DNA of 64,000 nucleotides from Pseudovirgaria hyperparasitica (lineage: Eukaryota): NCBI GenBank assembly GCA_010093815.1, contig ML996576.1; one strand, 5' to 3'. The notes under the pieces were generated by a model. The model worked only from the letters and a program-made list of their open reading frames with translations. It made no database searches and had not been told where the DNA came from. A program made the translations under genes and the position numbers. Of the stretch, positions 6,886 to 18,426 are shown in pieces. The first letter of the stretch is position 1; each line of letters starts with the position of its first letter.

Positions 6886-9183
6886 TCATGCGCCAATTAA
6901 GTCCTTGGGCAAGCATGCAAATACTGTGCTCACGACCGCCATGATCACGGACACAATAAGTAAAGTCCAATCAAACGCCTTGTCCCTACGTCGCATCTCC
7001 TTGCCAAACAGTTTCAAGTGGAACGCCAGCGGCAAAATGATGCAGATTGTGAAACATGCAATAGCGCCAAGTAAGGTCATGATGCGATCAAAACTTGGGA
7101 AAACGATCGCAATGAGGACAAAGACAATGTACATGATGACCCGGATAGTGATCATGAGGAGGCCGCGGTTCCAGCCGGACATACCGGCCATTGAAGGGGT
7201 GGACGCGATTGCTCGAGAATCGATGCCACAGAAGATCTCCACGGTGCTGATGATCGGCCGAGCGTTTAGAGGGACTTTAGTAAGCGGAATAATGGCAATA
7301 CAAATTGCGAGGATAACCGAGAGTCCGGCAGGATAACCAGAGGTCATGAAAATATTGGAAGTAATCTCATCTCGTACATCCTCGCCGAACATAAGGATTC
7401 CTATGACAGCCATGCCGAGATCAAGAAGGAGCTATGTTGTTAGCTTGGTGGCATCGCGAGTGATATGTAGACACTTACTGTGAAGCTATATGTGATGTTG
7501 ATGGCTTTTCTGTATTTATATGAATGACGCATATCCCTGTAAATGTTTGGAAAAACACTGTGACCACCCCATGGTGCTAAGACGTTGGTTAGAGATATAC
7601 TTGGTTCTTTTATTGTCTATACGTACACATCAATAGCCCAAAACTCAGAGGAATGGTTAGCCAGTTCTCTGGGAACAGGTACTGTTGAGCTGGTTCAAGA
7701 AGTGATCCTGGTTGTTCTGGTTTGATCAGACCATCCACGACAAGTATGAGGAATACTGAAATGTTGTTAGGACCTGCTGCGGTGATCTAATTATGAGATT
7801 CTTACTTGAAAGACAACACAGTATACCTAGAATACTGGTAAAGCTCAGGAGTCGTAACGGGAGGAATCCGATTGGGATCAAGATCAAACCACAAAGAATC
7901 TTCCATCCAGTAACACCCCAGCCAGGAATAAGGGCATTGAGAGAGTCAGCGAACAGAATGATCAGTGCTACACAAGCTGCAATCAGCTCTAGGCTGAACA
8001 GAATGCTTGTAGCAATCCTGGCTTTCTTGCCAAACGAGACAAACGCAAGATCCGCGAATGTTATTAGCGAATTATCCACATCCAAGCATTTGGCAAGGAG
8101 TTTCGCCGTGTATGCCGTTGCGACGGCTGAATAAGTGAAAAAGATGAGTCCAATCAGCAGCCCAGAGTATTTCAGAGCCAGGGGCAAGCTCAATAGTCCA
8201 ACCCCAATGAGCACGTTGACAGAATTAAATATGGTCTGTAGTTATGCTGTTAGTATGGACGGGACTTTTAGCGCCTCTAACAAATCAAAATACTTACTTG
8301 TGGTAATGTTGACTGTCCAACCACAACATTGATGATTTGGCCATCTTCTTCCACCTGCTTCACGAGAAGAGGTTCACGTTGCTCGTCAGGCTCGGTCACG
8401 CCTTTGAGTTGTTGTTCGGTGAATAGTCTTCCAGCATGCATCTTTGCGGAGTCATTGATACGAGAGCCAAGACTCCCATACATGGTCCCATAACTTCCGC
8501 CAAAAGGCGACGACAGCGAAGGCTCGATAGAAAAAATGCTTTCGTCTCGAATTCTTCTCCTTTCATCTCCTGAGACATGCAAGAGACCGGAAGTCTCGAC
8601 TGTCGACTCGTCATCTTCGACTGCATGGTCTGTGGCGCCTTCATTAGAGGCCCGCCGTCCTTCCTCTTCTAGAGCAGAGCGTAGAAGCGAGCGGTAGCTT
8701 CGCGGTCCAGTCTCTGCGGTCGGTGTGTCCACATCATCTTGCTGTGTATCATCATCGTCCCCAGTATCAGATATACGAAACGAATTCCGCACATGGGTGA
8801 TCTCGTGGAAACCAACGGCGCGCTGCCAGGAACGGGCAAAATTGTTCAAGGAGTTGACACCACCTGCATCAGCAAGGTTCTGTATGCGCATAGACAGGGA
8901 GGACCTGTAGAAAGTTTCCTGTTAGTGTTTGATCCGTTTGATGGAGTGAGAATTCTCCTCAGCCCCTTTCGACACGCGAAAGAGTGGGCTCTGGGAGCTC
9001 TCACCTTCTATGCCTTAATTGACCGTTGTGATCGGTCATATGTGGCGATTCAGTTCTAGATGCGCGTCCGGGTCGCTCAGAGCTCTCGTCCCATTGTATG
9101 TGACTGCCAGTAGAGCTAAAGGAACCATAGCGGCCCTGTTCGTAGTCCTTGATGGTGTTTGACCTCTTGTCATTAATATCCAT
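6886..9183 (-). CDS. Vacuolar amino acid transporter (Aa_trans family, AVT1-like)
   Basis: Multi-exon gene. Long hydrophilic N-terminus (GGVNSLNNFARSWQRAVGF), then GQSTLPQ/NVLIGVGLLSLP, GGHSVFPNIYRDMRH and multiple TM segments. Confidence 0.85.
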
Positions 9184-10403: not shown

Positions 10404-11877
10404 ATGAGCGCACCGCCGCAGGGGCAAGGCGCTGACGCCGAAAAAAATATCGAGATATGGAAGGTCAAGAAACTGATCAAACGTCTCGAAGCCGCTCGTG
10501 GTAATGGAACCTCCATGATCTCGCTCATCATCCGTATGTGTCCATTCACTCTAGTCTGCATACACTTTCCCTAACAGCACACAGCACCCAAGGACCAGAT
10601 CCCCCGTGCGGCAAAGATGTTGGCTGAAGAATACGTGCGTTTGAACGACACATGCATGCCCAATAAAATACATACTGATATGATATAGGGCACGGCATCT
10701 AACATCAAATCCCGCGTCAATCGTCTCTCGGTTCTATCCGCCATCACATCCACCCAGCAGCGTCTCAAATTATACTCAAAAGTACCCCCCAACGGCCTTG
10801 TCATATATTGCGGTGAAATTATTACTTCTGAGGGAAAGGAGCGGAAGATTAACATCGATTTTGAGCCCTTCAAGCCCATCAACACTTCGTTATATCTTTG
10901 CGACAACAAGTTCCATACTGAAGCGCTGAGCGAGTTGCTGGAGTCGGACCAGAAGTTCGGATTCATCATTATGGACGGTAACGGAGCGCTCTTTGGTACT
11001 TTGAGCGGAAATACTCGTGATATTGTTCACAAGTTCTCCGTTGATTTACCAAAAAAGCACGGCCGTGGTGGGCAGTCTGCACTCCGTTTCGCACGTCTTC
11101 GTGAAGAGAAGCGTCACAATTACGTTCGCAAGGTCGCTGAGTTAGCCGTCCAGAACTTCATCACTGCGGACAAAGTGAACGTGGCCGGTCTCATTCTTGC
11201 TGGATCCGCCGATTTCAAGAACGACCTCAATCAGTCTGATATGTTCGACAACCGCCTCCAGTCCAAAGTCATCAAGGTCGTCGATGTCTCGTACGGTGGT
11301 GAAAACGGATTCAATCAAGCCATTGAGCTATCAGGAGAGACGCTGAGTAACGTCAAGTTCATCCAGGAAAAGAAACTTATCAATAAGTACTTCGACGAGA
11401 TCAGTCAGGACACAGGTAAGGTCTGTTATGGTGTCGAGGATACCTTGAAGGCGCTCGACGCTGGTGCCGCGGAAACCCTCATCGTATTCGAGAATCTCGA
11501 GATCACTCGATGGACGCTCAAGAGTTCAGAAGGGACAGAGATCATTTTGCATACAAACAAGCTTCAGGAATCCGATCGTTCGCTGTTTATGGACAAAGAG
11601 ACCGGACAGGAAATGGAGATTGCCGACCAGATGCCATTCCTTGAATGGCTTGCAGAAAAGTACCGTGATTTTGGCGCCACTCTTGAGTTTGTATCCGATA
11701 GGTCCAGTGAGGGCAACCAATTCGTCAAGGGATTCGGTGGCATAGGTGCCATTCTGCGATACAAGCTCAACTTTGAGCAGCTCGCAGACTTCGACGACGA
11801 CGAAGATGAATTTTATGATGGTAAGTATAGCTTTCGAATTTTGAGTAGATCCAGTTTCTAACGAATGACAAGATTGA
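10404..11877 (+). CDS. SUP45: Eukaryotic peptide chain release factor 1 (eRF1)
   Basis: Motifs [41 protein letters not shown] and GRGGQS. Introns 10534-10584, 10635-10688 and 11821-11872; spliced C-terminus ..EDEFYDD-TGA (11875-11877). Confidence 0.97.
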
Positions 11878-11897
11878 CGATTTCGCACCCTCGCAAT

Positions 11898-11954
11898 GAG
11901 CGAGGAAGCACCCCAGGGGCTCGCCGCGTCAGGCCCTGGGAGCATTCCTCGCTC
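11898..11954 (+). promoter_or_regulatory. Predicted stem-loop 20 nt downstream of the eRF1 stop codon
   Basis: GAGCGAGGAA (11898-11907) is the exact reverse complement of TTCCTCGCTC (11945-11954); the inner stem is CCCAGGG/CCCTGGG. Confidence 0.6.
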
Positions 11955-12640
11955 TACGTGTCCGAATGAACAGGACACCCCAGCACTCGGGACGAGCGAC
12001 GAGACGTTCGCTTCTCCCTGTTACGCCAGGCTATAATGTCGACCGACTACATTGATGCTGTAGGCTTTTCCCCATCTCATCGTTGATAAAGCCTTATATT
12101 ATATGTTCACTGACTAGAGCAGTATCAGACTCGATGAGCATCAAAATGGGCTTGCTACAGTGCAGAGCTTTAAGGTTTTTTATATGGGGGCATTGAGCAA
12201 GTAGGAGACATTTGGCTCGTATATCAGCCAAGAATATAACTGCTGAGCCATGTGTTTAGATTGCTAGTTGTTGAAATGCCAATAAAGTGCTCCACGTGTT
12301 AATCACTCGTAGAATGTTCATTGGACTTGTAATTCTAATGATAGCTTTCGCTCGCCAGATGAACAAATAGGGACTGAAAGCGAATCTAGGCGTGGATCTT
12401 ACGTTCTACAATATTGTGCTACAGGTTAGTCATGTGTCTACTATACCCTAAGGTCGTTCGGTCCGCACCGAATTTGCTTTTGCGTGCATCATATCGGCGA
12501 CCGATGAAGGCACGCATGCTCCGTCTTACCTGATCCTAGAAAATAGCAAGTGTAAAGTCGAGATCTGATCTACATAGTTCTGGCTGAATATTAGCTTCTT
12601 CAATTTTCTCCGTGGTTACATACATGTACTCAATCTTGCA

Positions 12641-13848
12641 ATGAACACCCCGCACGAAGGGGTGGCATTCCTCGGCCCTCGAGCCTCATACACTCATCAA
12701 GTAAGCGGATATTTCTACCCTGGTTTTTCTTCTCGTGCGCACCGTGTTCTATCGATAACCTAGTAGCTTTACTATGTCTTTATCTAGTTTTAGCGTCCTT
12801 GTGCTCCGTTATCTGATACATGAAATCTTGCTAAGCATAGTAGGCTGCACTCAAGGCGTTTTCAGATTCGTCAAAATATGACCTCCAGCCACAGGTATCA
12901 ATTGAAGATGTATTCAAGTCCGTACAATCTGGCTCATGTGCAAGAGGCGTTGTTCCCTTCGAGAACAGTACAAATGGTAGCGTAGTTTTCACCCTGGACC
13001 TTTTCGCGGATGCCCATCAGCGCTATCCTGATATTCTCGTTTGCGGCGAAGTCTATGTGGATGTACACCATTGCTTGGTCGGTCATATGCCAAAAGAGGC
13101 ACATTCTGCTGCTACCACGTCGGCGCTTACCAGTCCCCATAGCAGCGGCCATGCTACGCCTACGGCTGCTCACCCGAGCCCAGCCATCCCGCGGGCCGTT
13201 CCTCTTGTGTCGCTAAAGGGCATCAAAAAGCTGTATTCGCATCCGCAAGCTTGGGGACAGTGCAATGCGTTCCTGACAACCTATTTCAAGGGTATCGAAC
13301 GACAAGATGTCTCATCAACCTCTCGAGCTGCTGAAATCGTAGCTGCCGATACGTCCGGCGAGACGGCTGCGATCAGCAGCGAAATTGCAGCACAGGTACA
13401 CGACCTCGACATGCTTGCAAAGGGAATTGAGGATACAAGCGACAACAAGACACGTTTTTTTGTGTTACGGCGTGGGAACCACTCAGCCCAGAGCAATGGT
13501 GACTCCAATGGTGGAGCAGTTGACACAGACACTCCGGCATATAAGACACTGGTTTCATTCACCATTTCACATAGCGATCCAGGGGCTCTGGCAGATTCTC
13601 TGGCTGTGTTCAAACCTTATAATATCAATTTGACGAGTATCAATGCACGGCCAAGTGGGATTGCGTCTTGGAATTACATCTTCTTTGTGGAGGTGACGGG
13701 TCGCCGGCTAAAAGAAGATACCGGTGCGGTCAATGCTGCATTGCGGGACTTGGAAAAGGTTGCGAGAGAATGGAGATGGTTGGGGAGCTGGGAGAACATG
13801 TTGCTACCAAAATGTCGGCCACTGGGAAAAATTGATGAGGTATCTTGA
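12641..13848 (+). CDS. PHA2: Prephenate dehydratase
   Basis: Exon 1 VAFLGPRASYTHQ, intron 12701-12843, then GVVPFENSTNGSV, LYSHPQAWGQC, SSTSRAA and the NKTRFFVL signature. C-terminal ACT domain (PGALADSL, NLTSINARP). Confidence 0.93.
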
Positions 13849-14240: not shown

Positions 14241-17200
14241 ATGAATGAAGACGCACACGAACATGGGTCAGCCGTGCGTCGCAGCAGTTCGCTGCAACGA
14301 CGACGAAGCAGCGACGCATATAGAAGAAGATCAATCATGAGCGAGTGAGTGGTTGAGGTCGACTCACTATTGCGATACTGATCGAACATAGAGCTAGCTT
14401 CATGGAAGATGTCGAGATGGCACAAGACGAGGTCCGCATACCGTATGTTACCCTGACTTGTGTCCCATACTGATAAGGTGCTAGATCTTCTCAGGACCTA
14501 TGTCTGAAAGCGTTCCCATGAGCGTGTCTTCCTTCGCGCACCGAACTCGAGCTCGGGCAGACTCTACCATTAGCCAAACGAGCTTTGCCTTCTACGACGA
14601 TGACGACGAACAAGGCTCAGAGATAACGGAGGAAGATGTCTTTGAGGAGGAAGAGAATGGTGATCTGAATGGCAATATGGAAGACTTTGATGGCTATGCA
14701 GAAGAGGGCGAGGATTTAGAAAACGGCCGCCGCCCACATTCGATTCGGCGCAAATCGTCGAACTACTCGAAGCACTCCAGACGGTCCTCCGGATCAGCGC
14801 GCGCGCCATTATTACGATTGCATTCCCGGACGAGTATTGAATCGGGCGATGGGTGGAGAGATGGGAGAGTGAGCCAAAAGATCTACATTGTTACGGAGGA
14901 TCTCACGATAGTCGTTGCTGGGTTCCAGACTTCCATGATCGGATTCGCCATCTACGTCACGATGTGTATATGCACAGGTGGCCTAGCATGGCTTCTATTT
15001 CGTTGGCTACCAAGGTGGTATGTTAAGATCACGGGCTCACCGACTTCATTGAGAGATTGTGACTGGGTTGTCGTTGAAAATCAATGGGGCGAGATGCAGA
15101 TAATACAGATCTCACGGGTAGGCTATGATAAGCCGCTATCCACAATATTTGGTGTACAGGATAAAGATCTTCATGGTGACTATCATGAGGATGATGATCC
15201 CATGGTAAAAGAGCTACTGACTTTGGACTATCGATACATAAGGTTTTGCTTCAATCCCCTCAGAGACAAGTTCATGCTGGGCACGACTTGGAAGGATCCC
15301 TCTTGGACAGAAATCGAGGCTATCCGCGGAGGTCTCGACACTGATGAGAAGGAATACCGCGAGACTTTGTTTGGAAAGAACGTCATAGACATCGAGGAGA
15401 AAACTACCGGACAGCTGCTTGTAGACGAGGCCTTCCACCCGTTCTATGTCTTTCAGATCGCCAGTCTGACTCTTTGGTCTTTGGATGAGTACTACTATTA
15501 CGCAGTGTGTATTTTCGTCATTTCTATCGTGTCCATCACAGCTACACTACTGGAAACCAAAGCGACTATGAGAAGATTGCGCGAAGTATCAAGGTTCGAG
15601 TGCGACGTCCGCGTTCTACGAAATGGCTTCTGGCGTTATGTTGAGTCGAGCGAGCTCGTTCCCGGCGACATCTATGAAATCACAGATCCTAATCTGACAC
15701 AATTCCCATGCGACAGTCTGCTTCTCTCGGGAGACTGCATCGTCAACGAAAGCATGCTTACTGGGGAGTCTGTTCCAGTCTCGAAGATCCCTGCAGTTGA
15801 TGAGACTTTGGCAGCGTTGAACCTTGGAGCAACGGCCATACCGGCGGACGTTGCTAGACACTTGCTCTTCAGTGGCACGAAAATCATCCGAGCTCGCAGA
15901 CCACAGGATGACAAGGACGACGAAGCCGCCGCCATCGCCATGGTTGCCAGAACCGGCTTCAACACCACCAAAGGGGCTTTAGTCCGCTCAATGTTGTTCC
16001 CGAAACCATCTGGCTTCAAGTTCTACCGTGACTCATTCCGCTACATCTCCGTCATGGGTGGTATTGCTGGCATCGGATTCATTGTATCATTTGTCAATTT
16101 TATACACCTCGGCCTAGCATGGCATCTTATCGTGGTTCGAGCATTGGATTTGATTACCATTGTCGTCCCTCCAGCGCTTCCGGCAACTCTCACAATTGGT
16201 ACTAATTTCGCATTGAGTCGACTCAAGCAGAAGAAAATCTTTTGCATCAGTCCGCAGCGCGTCAATGTTGGCGGGAAGGTTGACGTCGTCTGCTTTGACA
16301 AGACTGGAACTTTGACAGAAGACGGTCTCGACGTCTTAGGTGTACGAGTTGCCCAACCTAGCAGGTTTAGTGACATTCTTTCCGAGGCCTCTGATCTATT
16401 ACCAGGAAATCAGTATGAGCGAGATCCTACCGTGGACTATGACATCAACAAGGCTATATTGTACACAATGACAACTTGCCATTCACTGCGAATGATAGAT
16501 GGTGAGCTCATTGGCGACCCTCTGGATGTCAAAATGTTCGAATATACCGGCTGGGTCTTCGAAGAAGGCCAGCAGCGGAACGGCAACATTGATGATGACG
16601 ATCAACACAAACTCTCTCCATCTGTGGCCCGACCACCACCAGGGTCAGAGTACGATATCGATAACAATGAAGGACCTAATCGTACCCCAATTGAGCTCGG
16701 CGTCTTGAAAATTTTCGAGTTTGTATCGCAACTCCGACGAGCCAGCGTCATTGTTCGGCAATTCGGGTCACGCGATGGGAGTGTATTCGTCAAGGGTGCA
16801 CCTGAATGTATGGCCGAGATCTGCAAGCCTGAGAGCTTTCCACCAGACTACGAAGAACTTCTCGGCTACTACACCCACCGTGGGTATCGAGTCATTGCTT
16901 GCGCGACTAAGGTGATACCGAAGATGAGCTGGATCAAGGTCCAGAAGATGAAGCGCGATGAAGCAGAATCCGATCTTCAGTTCCTAGGTTTTATCATATT
17001 CGAAAACAAGCTCAAGCCCACGACAGCGGGCGTCCTTGATGAGCTGACCAATGCTGGAATCCGCAAGGTCATGTGCACCGGAGACAACATCCTTACTGCC
17101 ATCAGTGTCGGCCGTGAATGTAACCTCATCGATAGGACTGCTCACTGCTTCGTACCACATTTTGTCGAAGGCAACTCGGGGACTCCGCTGGCTAAGCTAA

Positions 17201-18426
17201 GTTGGGAGAGTGTTGACAATCCTATCTACACGTTAGATGAACACACCCTCAAGCCACTCCCACCGCCTGCAGAGACTGATGCTTCGCTACCATACGATAT
17301 CACGAATCTGAGGAACTACTCGGTCGCTGTGAGTGGCGACGTGTTCCGATGGATCATTGATTACGCCTCCGAGAAAGTACTCCGCGAGATGCTTGTGTGT
17401 GGGCAAGTCTTCGCACGCATGTCCCCCGACGAGAAACACGAACTTGTCGAGAAGCTCCAAAGTATCGATTACTGTGTCAGCTTCTGTGGAGATGGTGCAA
17501 ATGACTGTGGTGCCCTGAAGGCTGCAGATGTGGGCATTTCCCTCTCGGAAGCTGAGGCATCGGTCGCGGCACCATTCACCAGCAGAGTCTTTGACATTTC
17601 GTGCGTCCCTCAGGTCATTCGCGAGGGTCGTGCTGCACTGGTTACGAGCTTTAGCTGCTTCAAATACATGTCTTTGTATTCCGCCATTCAATTCACGTCC
17701 GTCAGCTTTCTATACGCAAGCGCATCCAATCTCGGCGATTTCCAGTTTCTATTCATCGACTTATTACTCATTCTGCCAATTGCGATATTTATGGGTTGGA
17801 CAGGACCGTACTGGGAGTTGTCTCGCAAACGCCCAACTGCGTCGCTCGTGAGCCGTAAAGTCTTGACACCACTCGTCGGGCAAATCGTCATCACCATCTT
17901 CATTCAGGCTGTCGGGTTCTATTTCGTGCAGCGGCAGCCGTGGTACCAACCTCCTATTCTGGACAAGAACCACTCGAACTCGAAGAATTCCCAAAATACG
18001 ACTCTTTTTCTCCTTTCGTGCTATCAGTACATCCTATTCTCAGTTGTGCTTAGCGTCGGCCCGCCGTTTAGGCAGAGTATGGCTCGCAATTGTTTGTCTT
18101 CTCCTACACCCATAATGTTAGGTGTTTGCTAACAGTCTTTAGTACCTTTCGTCATAACAATAGTTGTAACGATGCTTATTGCATCTTACATGCTATTCGA
18201 TCCAGCCCACTGGCTATACAAGCTGATGGAGCTTACAGATATGTCGCTACAGTTTCAGCTCTTCATTCTTGCATTAGGATTGGGAAACTTTTGCCTTGCG
18301 TATGTGGGTGAGAAATATGTCTTCCCAAATATCGCAAAGGCGATTGGAAAGACGAAGCAGAAGATGAATCCGAAATGGAGGAAGCAGAGGAAGCAGTATA
18401 AATTGATAGCAGAGGGGCAGACGTGA
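14241..18426 (+). CDS. YPK9: P5B-type ATPase (Ypk9/ATP13A2-like, putative polyamine transporter)
   Basis: Motifs PPALP (P5B), DKTGTLT, LTGES, KGAPE, TGDN, FARMSPDEK and CGDGANDCG. Introns about 14345-14391, 14432-14484 and 18092-18142. Confidence 0.93.

What the first reader, a model, noticed from the sequence alone, without database searches (positions are those of the whole stretch)
11821..12128. eRF1 3' end has the full layout of a readthrough/NMD autoregulatory switch
Seen: after splicing, eRF1 ends at TGA (11875-11877) followed by C (TGA-CGA), a leaky context. The frame stays open for 52 codons to TAA (12034-12036). A candidate 3'UTR intron starts 23 nt later (GTAGGC at 12060, CTGAC branch 12110-12114, acceptor CAG at 12122 or 12128). 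The junction is ~180 nt from the first stop, far enough to trigger EJC-type NMD, but only ~23 nt from the second. Known: readthrough plus NMD autoregulation has been described for plant eRF1-1 and Neurospora crassa erf1. Inference: when eRF1 is scarce, readthrough clears the junction and stabilises the mRNA; when it is abundant, efficient termination triggers decay.
Basis: partly seen in the sequence, partly recalled or inferred. Interest (0 to 1): 0.75.

Follow-up and report, generated by a model that had tools for sequence, protein, structure and literature searches.

The report
Leaky eRF1 stop with spliced intron
In this fungus the gene for the protein that ends translation (eRF1) has a leaky-looking stop codon, an RNA hairpin, an open 52-codon tail and a genuinely spliced downstream intron, the layout already reported in Neurospora and plants to let eRF1 steady its own level, and the tail ends in what looks like a peroxisome address tag.

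Summary
Observation confirmed. Every coordinate is right. Spliced contigs of two public runs (one sample) skip 12060-12122, so the 3'UTR intron is real; its junction lies 182 nt after the TGA and 23 nt after the second stop. The 52 open codons alone are unremarkable (p about 0.25), but conservation is strong. In 39 of 39 filamentous-ascomycete erf1 loci the stop is TGA (+4 C in 35) and the frame stays open for at least 44 codons (control frames: 3 and 2 of 39). A 6-bp hairpin starts 11 nt after the stop (36 of 39 loci). The read-through tail ends in a PTS1-type tripeptide (ARL here; 9 of 39 loci, against 0.4-0.8% background). Best reading (0.85): an orthologue of the readthrough/NMD autoregulatory 3'UTR described for Neurospora erf1 (title only seen) and plant eRF1-1. 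Readthrough, NMD sensitivity and feedback were not measured here. Peroxisomal import of the extended protein is a speculative extra (0.3). The scan has noted this layout in three other fungal genomes and the PTS1 tail in one. New member of a known kind.

The parts
10404..11877 (+). eRF1 (erf1/SUP45) coding region, 4 exons (10404-10533, 10585-10634, 10689-11820, 11873-11877), 438 aa, with NIKS, YxCxxxF and GGQ motifs; only match in the genome
   Evidence: (Pfam eRF1_1/2/3)
11821..11872 (+). last coding intron, 52 nt, GTAAGT donor, CTAAC branch, AAG acceptor; ends 2 nt before the stop codon
   Evidence: spliced in both runs
11875..11880 (+). first stop TGA with +4 C (TGA-CGA), a variant of the UGA-CGG/CGx readthrough context
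   Evidence: TGA in 39 of 39 and TGA-C in 35 of 39 loci; context class from PMC3159437 passages
11889..11905 (+). conserved hairpin P1 (CCTCGC / 5-nt loop / GCGAGG), 11-nt spacer from the stop; candidate readthrough stimulator
11898..11954 (+). longer stem predicted in this species; it uses the 3' arm of P1 and outcompetes P1 at equilibrium; not conserved as a separate structure
11878..12033 (+). in-frame extension, 52 codons (a read-through protein would be 491 aa)
12025..12033 (+). last three codons of the extension, Ala-Arg-Leu: PTS1-type tripeptide
   Evidence: consensus and a fungal ARL example in PMC10470777 passages
12034..12036 (+). second stop TAA, 23 nt before the junction, at the expected EJC site (12036-12040 if the EJC sits 20-24 nt upstream; that offset is recalled knowledge)
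12060..12122 (+). 3'UTR intron, 63 nt, GTAGGC donor, CTGAC branch 12110-12114, CAG acceptor
   Evidence: spliced in contigs of 2 of 2 runs
12281..12286 (+). AATAAA, possible polyadenylation signal; use not shown
   Evidence: contigs cannot show a transcript end

Best explanation
This is the fungal erf1 readthrough/NMD (RT-NMD) autoregulatory 3'UTR. Splicing of intron 12060-12122 (shown) leaves an exon junction complex about 160 nt downstream of the normal stop (inferred). When eRF1 is plentiful, the ribosome terminates at the TGA with the EJC still in place, and UPF1-2-3 degrade the mRNA (inferred). When eRF1 is scarce, the TGA-C context, probably helped by an RNA stem just 3' of it, lets a near-cognate tRNA read the stop. 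The ribosome then runs 52 codons to a TAA that lies on the expected EJC site, strips the EJC, and the mRNA becomes stable and yields more eRF1 (inferred by homology with Neurospora and plants). Most of the tail is a neutral spacer whose job is to stay open and in frame (shown by sequence comparison).
For: Intron spliced in 2 of 2 runs. TGA in 39 of 39 loci, +4 C in 35 of 39; frame open for at least 44 codons in 39 of 39 against 3 and 2 of 39 in the other frames; 0 stops against 75 and 79 in the first 132 nt. Hairpin with 6 of 6 pairs at the same offset in 36 of 39, loops of only 5 or 8 nt, which keeps the frame; local fold z below -1.5 in 37 of 39. A candidate 3' intron was called in 27 of 39 loci, and in 25 of these 27 the second stop lies at most 36 nt before the junction or beyond it. 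L029, which looks like a spliced transcript, lacks the matching intron of L005, L031 and L070. UPF1, UPF2, UPF3 and Mago are present in G000. The mechanism was shown for plant eRF1-1 (PMC5397192, passages), and the title of Kurilla et al. 2020 states it for N. crassa (reference lists). In N. crassa, NMD through 3'UTR introns needs EJC factors (citing passage in PMC10578600).
Against: No readthrough, decay or feedback measurement exists for this organism. The +5/+6 bases (CGA) match neither UGA-CUA, UGA-CGG nor CAR-YYA exactly. In this species P1 has probability 0.00 in the equilibrium ensemble because a stem 6 kcal/mol more stable captures its 3' arm. P1 covariation is weak: 1 of 6 pairs has a two-sided change, in 3 related sequences, with 11 of 500 shuffles as high. 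The RNA evidence is one sample of one study. Introns in relatives are mostly predicted, with no candidate in 12 of 39 loci and 2 of 27 outside the pattern. The loci are related, so counts are not independent. The poly(A) site is unknown, so a long-3'UTR contribution to NMD cannot be separated.
Confidence: 0.85

Rival explanations
1. Readthrough is kept mainly to make an extended eRF1 isoform with its own fate (here import into peroxisomes through a PTS1, in other lineages a different C-terminal motif); the intron and NMD are incidental.
For: PTS1-consensus ends in 9 of 39 loci against 3 of 391 control-frame ends and 13 of 3614 in the window, in 3 to 6 lineage groups depending on the identity cut-off, placed among Dothideomycetes and lichen-type Lecanoromycetes on a quick tree. 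The Arg codon varies (AGG, AGA, CGA, CGC) and Leu is TTG or CTA. NCBI models of Diplodia and Lasiodiplodia that splice round the stop end in SRL, and some Penicillium models in SKL. An S-x-L-R-type motif recurs near the tail end in other classes (18 of 30 extended models).
Against: 30 of 39 loci have no PTS1 end, yet keep the stop, open frame and (mostly) hairpin and intron geometry. The body of the tail evolves about neutrally (25 synonymous against 59 non-synonymous codon changes in 7 ungapped pairs; 22-30% identity to the window's tail). In most Eurotiales models SKL is internal, so it is not a PTS1. The extended plant protein was inactive in termination assays.
Confidence: 0.08
2. The 3'UTR intron makes erf1 a constitutive NMD target (or aids 3' end processing); any readthrough is background and does not respond to eRF1 level.
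For: Only splicing is directly shown; the open frame in this window alone has p about 0.25; the conserved hairpin is predicted to be disrupted in this species.
Against: It does not explain invariant TGA, 35 of 39 +4 C, the absence of in-frame stops for 44 codons in all 39 loci, frame-keeping loop lengths, or the tie between second stop and junction.
Confidence: 0.05
3. Chance arrangement with no function.
For: Each element alone is short or common.
Against: Splicing is shown; the TGA-C plus hairpin pattern occurs once in the window (0 of 100 shuffles) and twice in the 35 Mb genome, and is conserved across classes.
Confidence: 0.02

Closest known systems
Neurospora crassa erf1 autoregulation by readthrough and 3'UTR-intron NMD (Kurilla et al. 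2020, FEBS Lett 594:3504; seen only as a title in two reference lists; not held)
   Same: Orthologous gene, same three elements named in the title (readthrough, 3'UTR intron, NMD); the layout is continuous across the filamentous ascomycete loci examined.
   Different: Different class of fungus (sister to Pleosporales on a quick eRF1 tree, SH-aLRT 91). I could not see whether the paper describes the hairpin or the tail's end. No N. crassa sequence was compared directly.
Plant eRF1-1 RT-NMD 3'UTR (Nyiko et al. 2017, PMC5397192; passages read)
   Same: [quoted passage not shown]
   Different: Plants use TAG-CAATCA with upstream A's and have an unregulated paralogue; here TGA-C plus a hairpin in the only eRF1 gene found. 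Plant tails were reported as unconserved and without motifs; the fungal tails carry conserved terminal motifs. The word 'stem' does not occur in that paper's main text.
Type II viral readthrough cassettes, UGA-CUA/CGG with a 3' stem after a 7-12 nt spacer (Firth et al. 2011, PMC3159437; passages)
   Same: UGA-C followed by a stem after an 11-nt spacer; UGA-CGG in 13 of 39 loci (read).
   Different: The viral stems are 10-12 bp or more with long loops; P1 is a 6-bp local hairpin. Stimulation by P1 is untested.
Cryptic PTS1 exposed by readthrough in fungal and animal enzymes (Stiebler et al. 2014, PMC4207609; passages)
   Same: UGA readthrough would expose a conserved PTS1-type tripeptide.
   Different: Known cases are metabolic enzymes with a UGA-CUA context; here the cargo is a translation factor with a 52-residue tail, present in only some lineages. 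'eRF1' does not occur in that paper's main text.

Membership tests
RT-NMD autoregulatory 3'UTR of eRF1 (plant eRF1-1, N. crassa erf1) | Gene encodes the class-1 release factor eRF1 | tested here: met
   Pfam eRF1_1/2/3; NIKS, YxCxxxF, GGQ
RT-NMD autoregulatory 3'UTR of eRF1 (plant eRF1-1, N. crassa erf1) | Stop codon in a readthrough-type context, conserved | tested here: met
   TGA-C here and in 35 of 39 loci, TGA in 39 of 39
RT-NMD autoregulatory 3'UTR of eRF1 (plant eRF1-1, N. crassa erf1) | [quoted passage not shown] | tested here: met
   Junction 12059>12123 in both runs, 182 nt downstream; one sample only
RT-NMD autoregulatory 3'UTR of eRF1 (plant eRF1-1, N. crassa erf1) | [quoted passage not shown] | tested here: met
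   23 nt before the junction; 25 of 27 loci with a predicted intron fit. Its distance to the poly(A) site is unknown
RT-NMD autoregulatory 3'UTR of eRF1 (plant eRF1-1, N. crassa erf1) | NMD and EJC machinery present | tested here: met
   UPF1, UPF2, UPF3 and Mago families over cut-off in G000; Y14 and eIF4A3 were not identified individually (one search listed RRM domains without telling which is Y14)
RT-NMD autoregulatory 3'UTR of eRF1 (plant eRF1-1, N. crassa erf1) | Measurable readthrough of the first stop | not testable with these tools
   Only indirect: stop avoidance and frame-keeping indels
RT-NMD autoregulatory 3'UTR of eRF1 (plant eRF1-1, N. crassa erf1) | mRNA is an NMD target and responds negatively to eRF1 level | not testable with these tools
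   Needs mutants or reporters
Structure-stimulated (type II) UGA readthrough cassette | Conserved stem 7-12 nt after UGA-C | tested here: inconclusive
   Pairing potential conserved in 36 of 39 but covariation weak and P1 is outcompeted in this species' predicted ensemble; no Rfam match
Readthrough-derived cryptic PTS1 isoform | Extension ends in [SAC][KRH][LM], conserved among orthologues | tested here: met
   ARL here; 9 of 39 loci; named Botryosphaeriales models end SRL; absent from 30 of 39
Readthrough-derived cryptic PTS1 isoform | UGA-CUA context typical of described cases | tested here: not met
   Context is TGA-CGA
Readthrough-derived cryptic PTS1 isoform | Pex5-dependent import shown | not testable with these tools
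   Pex14_N present in G000; import untested

The most novel reading that the evidence does not exclude
In part of the Dothideomycetes and Lecanoromycetes, and perhaps separately in some Penicillium, the circuit has a second, protein-level arm. The ribosome that reads through the erf1 stop both clears the EJC and makes a 491-aa eRF1 ending in a PTS1, which Pex5 carries into the peroxisome. The by-product is thereby removed from the cytosol, where it could compete for ribosomes or eRF3. Other lineages would dispose of or use it through a different conserved tail motif (S-x-L-R). A core translation factor sent to the peroxisome by its own failure to terminate was not found in my literature search (4 papers listed, none on this by title or abstract start), but Kurilla et al. 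2020 could not be read.
Probability: 0.3. Interest if true: 0.65.

Novelty: new member of a known kind. Interest (0 to 1): 0.4.

Why it matters
As a further case of eRF1 RT-NMD autoregulation it mainly confirms that the Neurospora circuit is widespread in filamentous ascomycetes, here with direct splice evidence. It also defines a compact testable cassette (TGA-C, 11-nt spacer, 6-bp hairpin, open tail, second stop at the EJC site), and it explains why many database eRF1 models of these fungi have spurious long C-termini. If the PTS1 works, it would show a feedback loop that disposes of its own read-through product by organelle import, and it would challenge the view from plants that the tail is inert.

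Tried and rejected
No RNA holder was on record; the two unlabelled runs turned out to be spliced. Acceptor 12128 rejected: contigs use 12122. Retention of intron 11821-11872 as the main form rejected; contigs drop rare variants, so minor forms are not excluded. A conserved second stem or two-state switch downstream of P1 rejected as a general feature: median z -0.33, 3 of 39 below -1.5, and RNAalifold on 24 loci kept only P1. The conserved TTG-TAA at the second stop as a hidden splice donor rejected as the cause of the Leu-stop ending, because the window has CTA-TAA with no GT; for L002 the best-scored donor does overlap its stop, so its SML end is uncertain. Rfam: no match at E up to 1. Pfam on the tail: none. 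A homologue search with an alignment of 8 tails among longer proteins: none (weak evidence). Viral contigs and genome contigs gave no close fungal loci. The second genomic match of the stop-plus-hairpin pattern (G000:C9) was not followed. The careful tree did not finish; only the quick tree was used. The pair script stopped after 9 of 11 pairs. Kurilla 2020 and Zhang and Sachs 2015 are not held. No complex prediction was run: a PTS1-Pex5 pair would pass by likeness to solved structures.

Full report
Observation. The gene is eRF1 (Pfam eRF1_1, _2, _3), the only match in the 35.4 Mb assembly. Its closest named relatives are filamentous ascomycetes at 89-94% identity; on a quick tree it is sister to Pleosporales (SH-aLRT 91; the careful tree did not finish).

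Splicing is shown. The run search listed two runs of one sample with no library type on record. Their contigs skip four GT..AG introns: 51, 54, 52 and 63 nt (the first only in X1, whose contig reaches further 5'). The 52-nt intron is 11821-11872, with an AAG acceptor, so the 438-aa protein ends FYDD-TGA. The 63-nt intron is 12060-12122, which settles the acceptor. The junction is 182 nt after the first stop and 23 nt after the second. The contigs continue unbroken to 12701 and then match 12845, an intron of the next gene, a prephenate dehydratase. Polyadenylation before 12060 is therefore not the form assembled, but the true 3' end is unknown; an AATAAA lies at 12281.

Chance. In this window alone, 52 open codons arise in 25% of base shuffles, so the argument rests on relatives. 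One search returned 80 metagenome loci. I used 38 of them plus the window (39). I dropped 40 that did not match a fungal-type C-terminus pattern (68-78% identity) and two yeast-like loci, L066 and L069, which end in TAA or TAG without the hairpin. Among the 39, the stop is TGA in all, with +4 C in 35 and T in 4. The frame is open for at least 44 codons in 39, against 3 and 2 in the two other frames; the first 132 nt hold 0 in-frame stops against 75 and 79. The loci are related, so these are not 39 independent trials; they fall into 15 to 33 groups by protein identity.

Intron geometry in relatives. A simple splice-site script called a candidate in 27 of 39 loci. In 25 of the 27 the second stop is 9-36 nt before the junction or lies beyond it; L018 and L023 do not fit on the top-scoring candidate. 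Twelve loci gave no candidate; two of these are truncated and some look like spliced transcripts. L029 lacks the intron seen at the same place in L005, L031 and L070, which is independent support for splicing in Pleosporales.

A 6-bp stem starts exactly 11 nt after the stop with all six pairs possible in 36 of 39 loci; L018 has five, and L006 and L007 have a different stem. Loops are 5 nt (29 loci) or 8 nt (8 loci), which keeps the frame. The local fold has z below -1.5 in 37 of 39, median -3.4. On an alignment of 36 of the 39 loci (three near-duplicates left out), 96% of cells pair, against 36-55% in slid controls, but covariation is thin: one pair changes on both sides, in three related loci. 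Viral UGA-C readthrough sites carry stems after spacers of about 7-12 nt that raise readthrough up to about 10-fold (PMC3159437, passages). Against a simple picture: in this species a longer stem (11898-11954) is 6 kcal/mol more stable and leaves P1 with probability 0.00 at equilibrium. A general second stem is not supported. No Rfam family matches.

The tail. Between close loci the body of the extension changes about neutrally (25 synonymous, 59 non-synonymous codon changes in 7 ungapped pairs), while the only two gaps in 9 pairs are 3 nt; downstream of the second stop 27 of 42 gaps are not multiples of three, though those alignments are rough (the script stopped after 9 of 11 pairs). So the tail is kept open and in frame rather than for most of its residues. 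Its end is different. Here it reads ARL, which fits the fungal PTS1 consensus; Histoplasma Sid1 ends in ARL and is reported peroxisomal (PMC10470777, passages). Nine of 39 loci end in a PTS1-consensus tripeptide (ARL, SRL, AHL) 49-52 codons after the TGA, against 3 of 391 control-frame ends and 13 of 3614 ends in the window, with varying Arg and Leu codons. NCBI models from Diplodia and Lasiodiplodia that splice round the stop end in SRL, and several Penicillium models in SKL. But 30 of 39 loci lack such an end, and in most Eurotiales models SKL is internal, part of an S-x-L-R-type motif seen in 18 of 30 extended models. The PTS1 is thus a lineage-limited feature, and import is untested.

Mechanism. 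Shown: gene structure, splicing, distances, conservation, and the presence of UPF1, UPF2, UPF3, Mago and Pex14 families in the genome. From established knowledge (recalled): the EJC sits about 20-24 nt before a junction, here 12036-12040, so a ribosome ending at the TAA would cover it. Inferred: termination at the TGA with the EJC downstream triggers NMD; readthrough removes the EJC and stabilises the mRNA; since eRF1 competes with near-cognate tRNA, its level sets the balance. I put this at 0.85.

Comparison with the known. Nyiko et al. 2017 (PMC5397192, passages) define the RT-NMD 3'UTR by three features, all met here, and showed the loop in plants. Kurilla et al. 2020 state the same for N. 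crassa; I saw only its title in two reference lists, and neither it nor Zhang and Sachs 2015 is held, so I cannot say whether the hairpin or the tail's end are described there. Searches listed no paper whose title or abstract start describes the fungal hairpin or a peroxisomal eRF1; most subscription papers are outside that library. Earlier notes of this scan report the same layout in three other fungal genomes and an AKL-ended tail in one; I had recorded the hairpin and PTS1 idea before reading them (notes), and they are unchecked AI notes, not independent evidence.

Verdict. A real, spliced, conserved RT-NMD cassette on eRF1: a new member of a known kind, interest 0.4. The open and more novel part is the PTS1-ended read-through isoform (probability 0.3, interest 0.65 if true).

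Noticed in passing
window 12641-13848 (+): Prephenate dehydratase gene directly downstream (ATG 12641, first intron about 12701-12843). A prephenate dehydratase match lies beside erf1 in 19 of the other 40 loci searched, in either orientation, and two Botryosphaeriales database models fuse the two genes (P0121, P0148).
   Followed up: partly
window 12123-12701: The spliced contigs of both runs pass without a break from the erf1 3'UTR into the next gene: overlapping UTRs, read-through transcription or an assembly join.
   Followed up: no
window 11821-11872: The last coding intron uses a rare AAG acceptor and ends 2 nt before the stop; retention would give a different C-terminus with an early TAA at 11859-11861, a likely NMD substrate. 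L012 and L014 also have AAG here, and several 3'UTR intron candidates use AAG.
   Followed up: partly
L016, L017, L019, L021-L028, L034; proteins P0113, P0122-P0146: In other classes the read-through tail carries a conserved S-x-L-R-type motif near its end (for example PSPLRS, PSKLRN, RSNLRN), in some lineages spanning the intron junction; function unknown.
   Followed up: partly
L006, L007: These two Capnodiales-like loci have replaced the conserved hairpin sequence by a different short stem at a similar position, while keeping TGA-C and a long open frame.
   Followed up: no
L032, L033, L035, L037: A clade near Orbilia on the tree has TGA-TGG instead of TGA-C but keeps the hairpin, open frame and spacing.
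   Followed up: no
G000:C9:1274022-1274052: A second match of the TGA-C plus hairpin pattern in the genome; whether it follows a real stop codon was not checked.
   Followed up: no
proteins P0013, P0035, P0063, P0113, P0122-P0150: Many database eRF1 models of filamentous fungi splice round the true TGA and run into the read-through frame, giving spurious long C-termini.
   Followed up: partly
window 7726-9000 (-) and 14485-18132 (+): Neighbouring ORFs look like an amino-acid transporter and a P5-type ATPase (by eye; names recalled, not searched).
   Followed up: no
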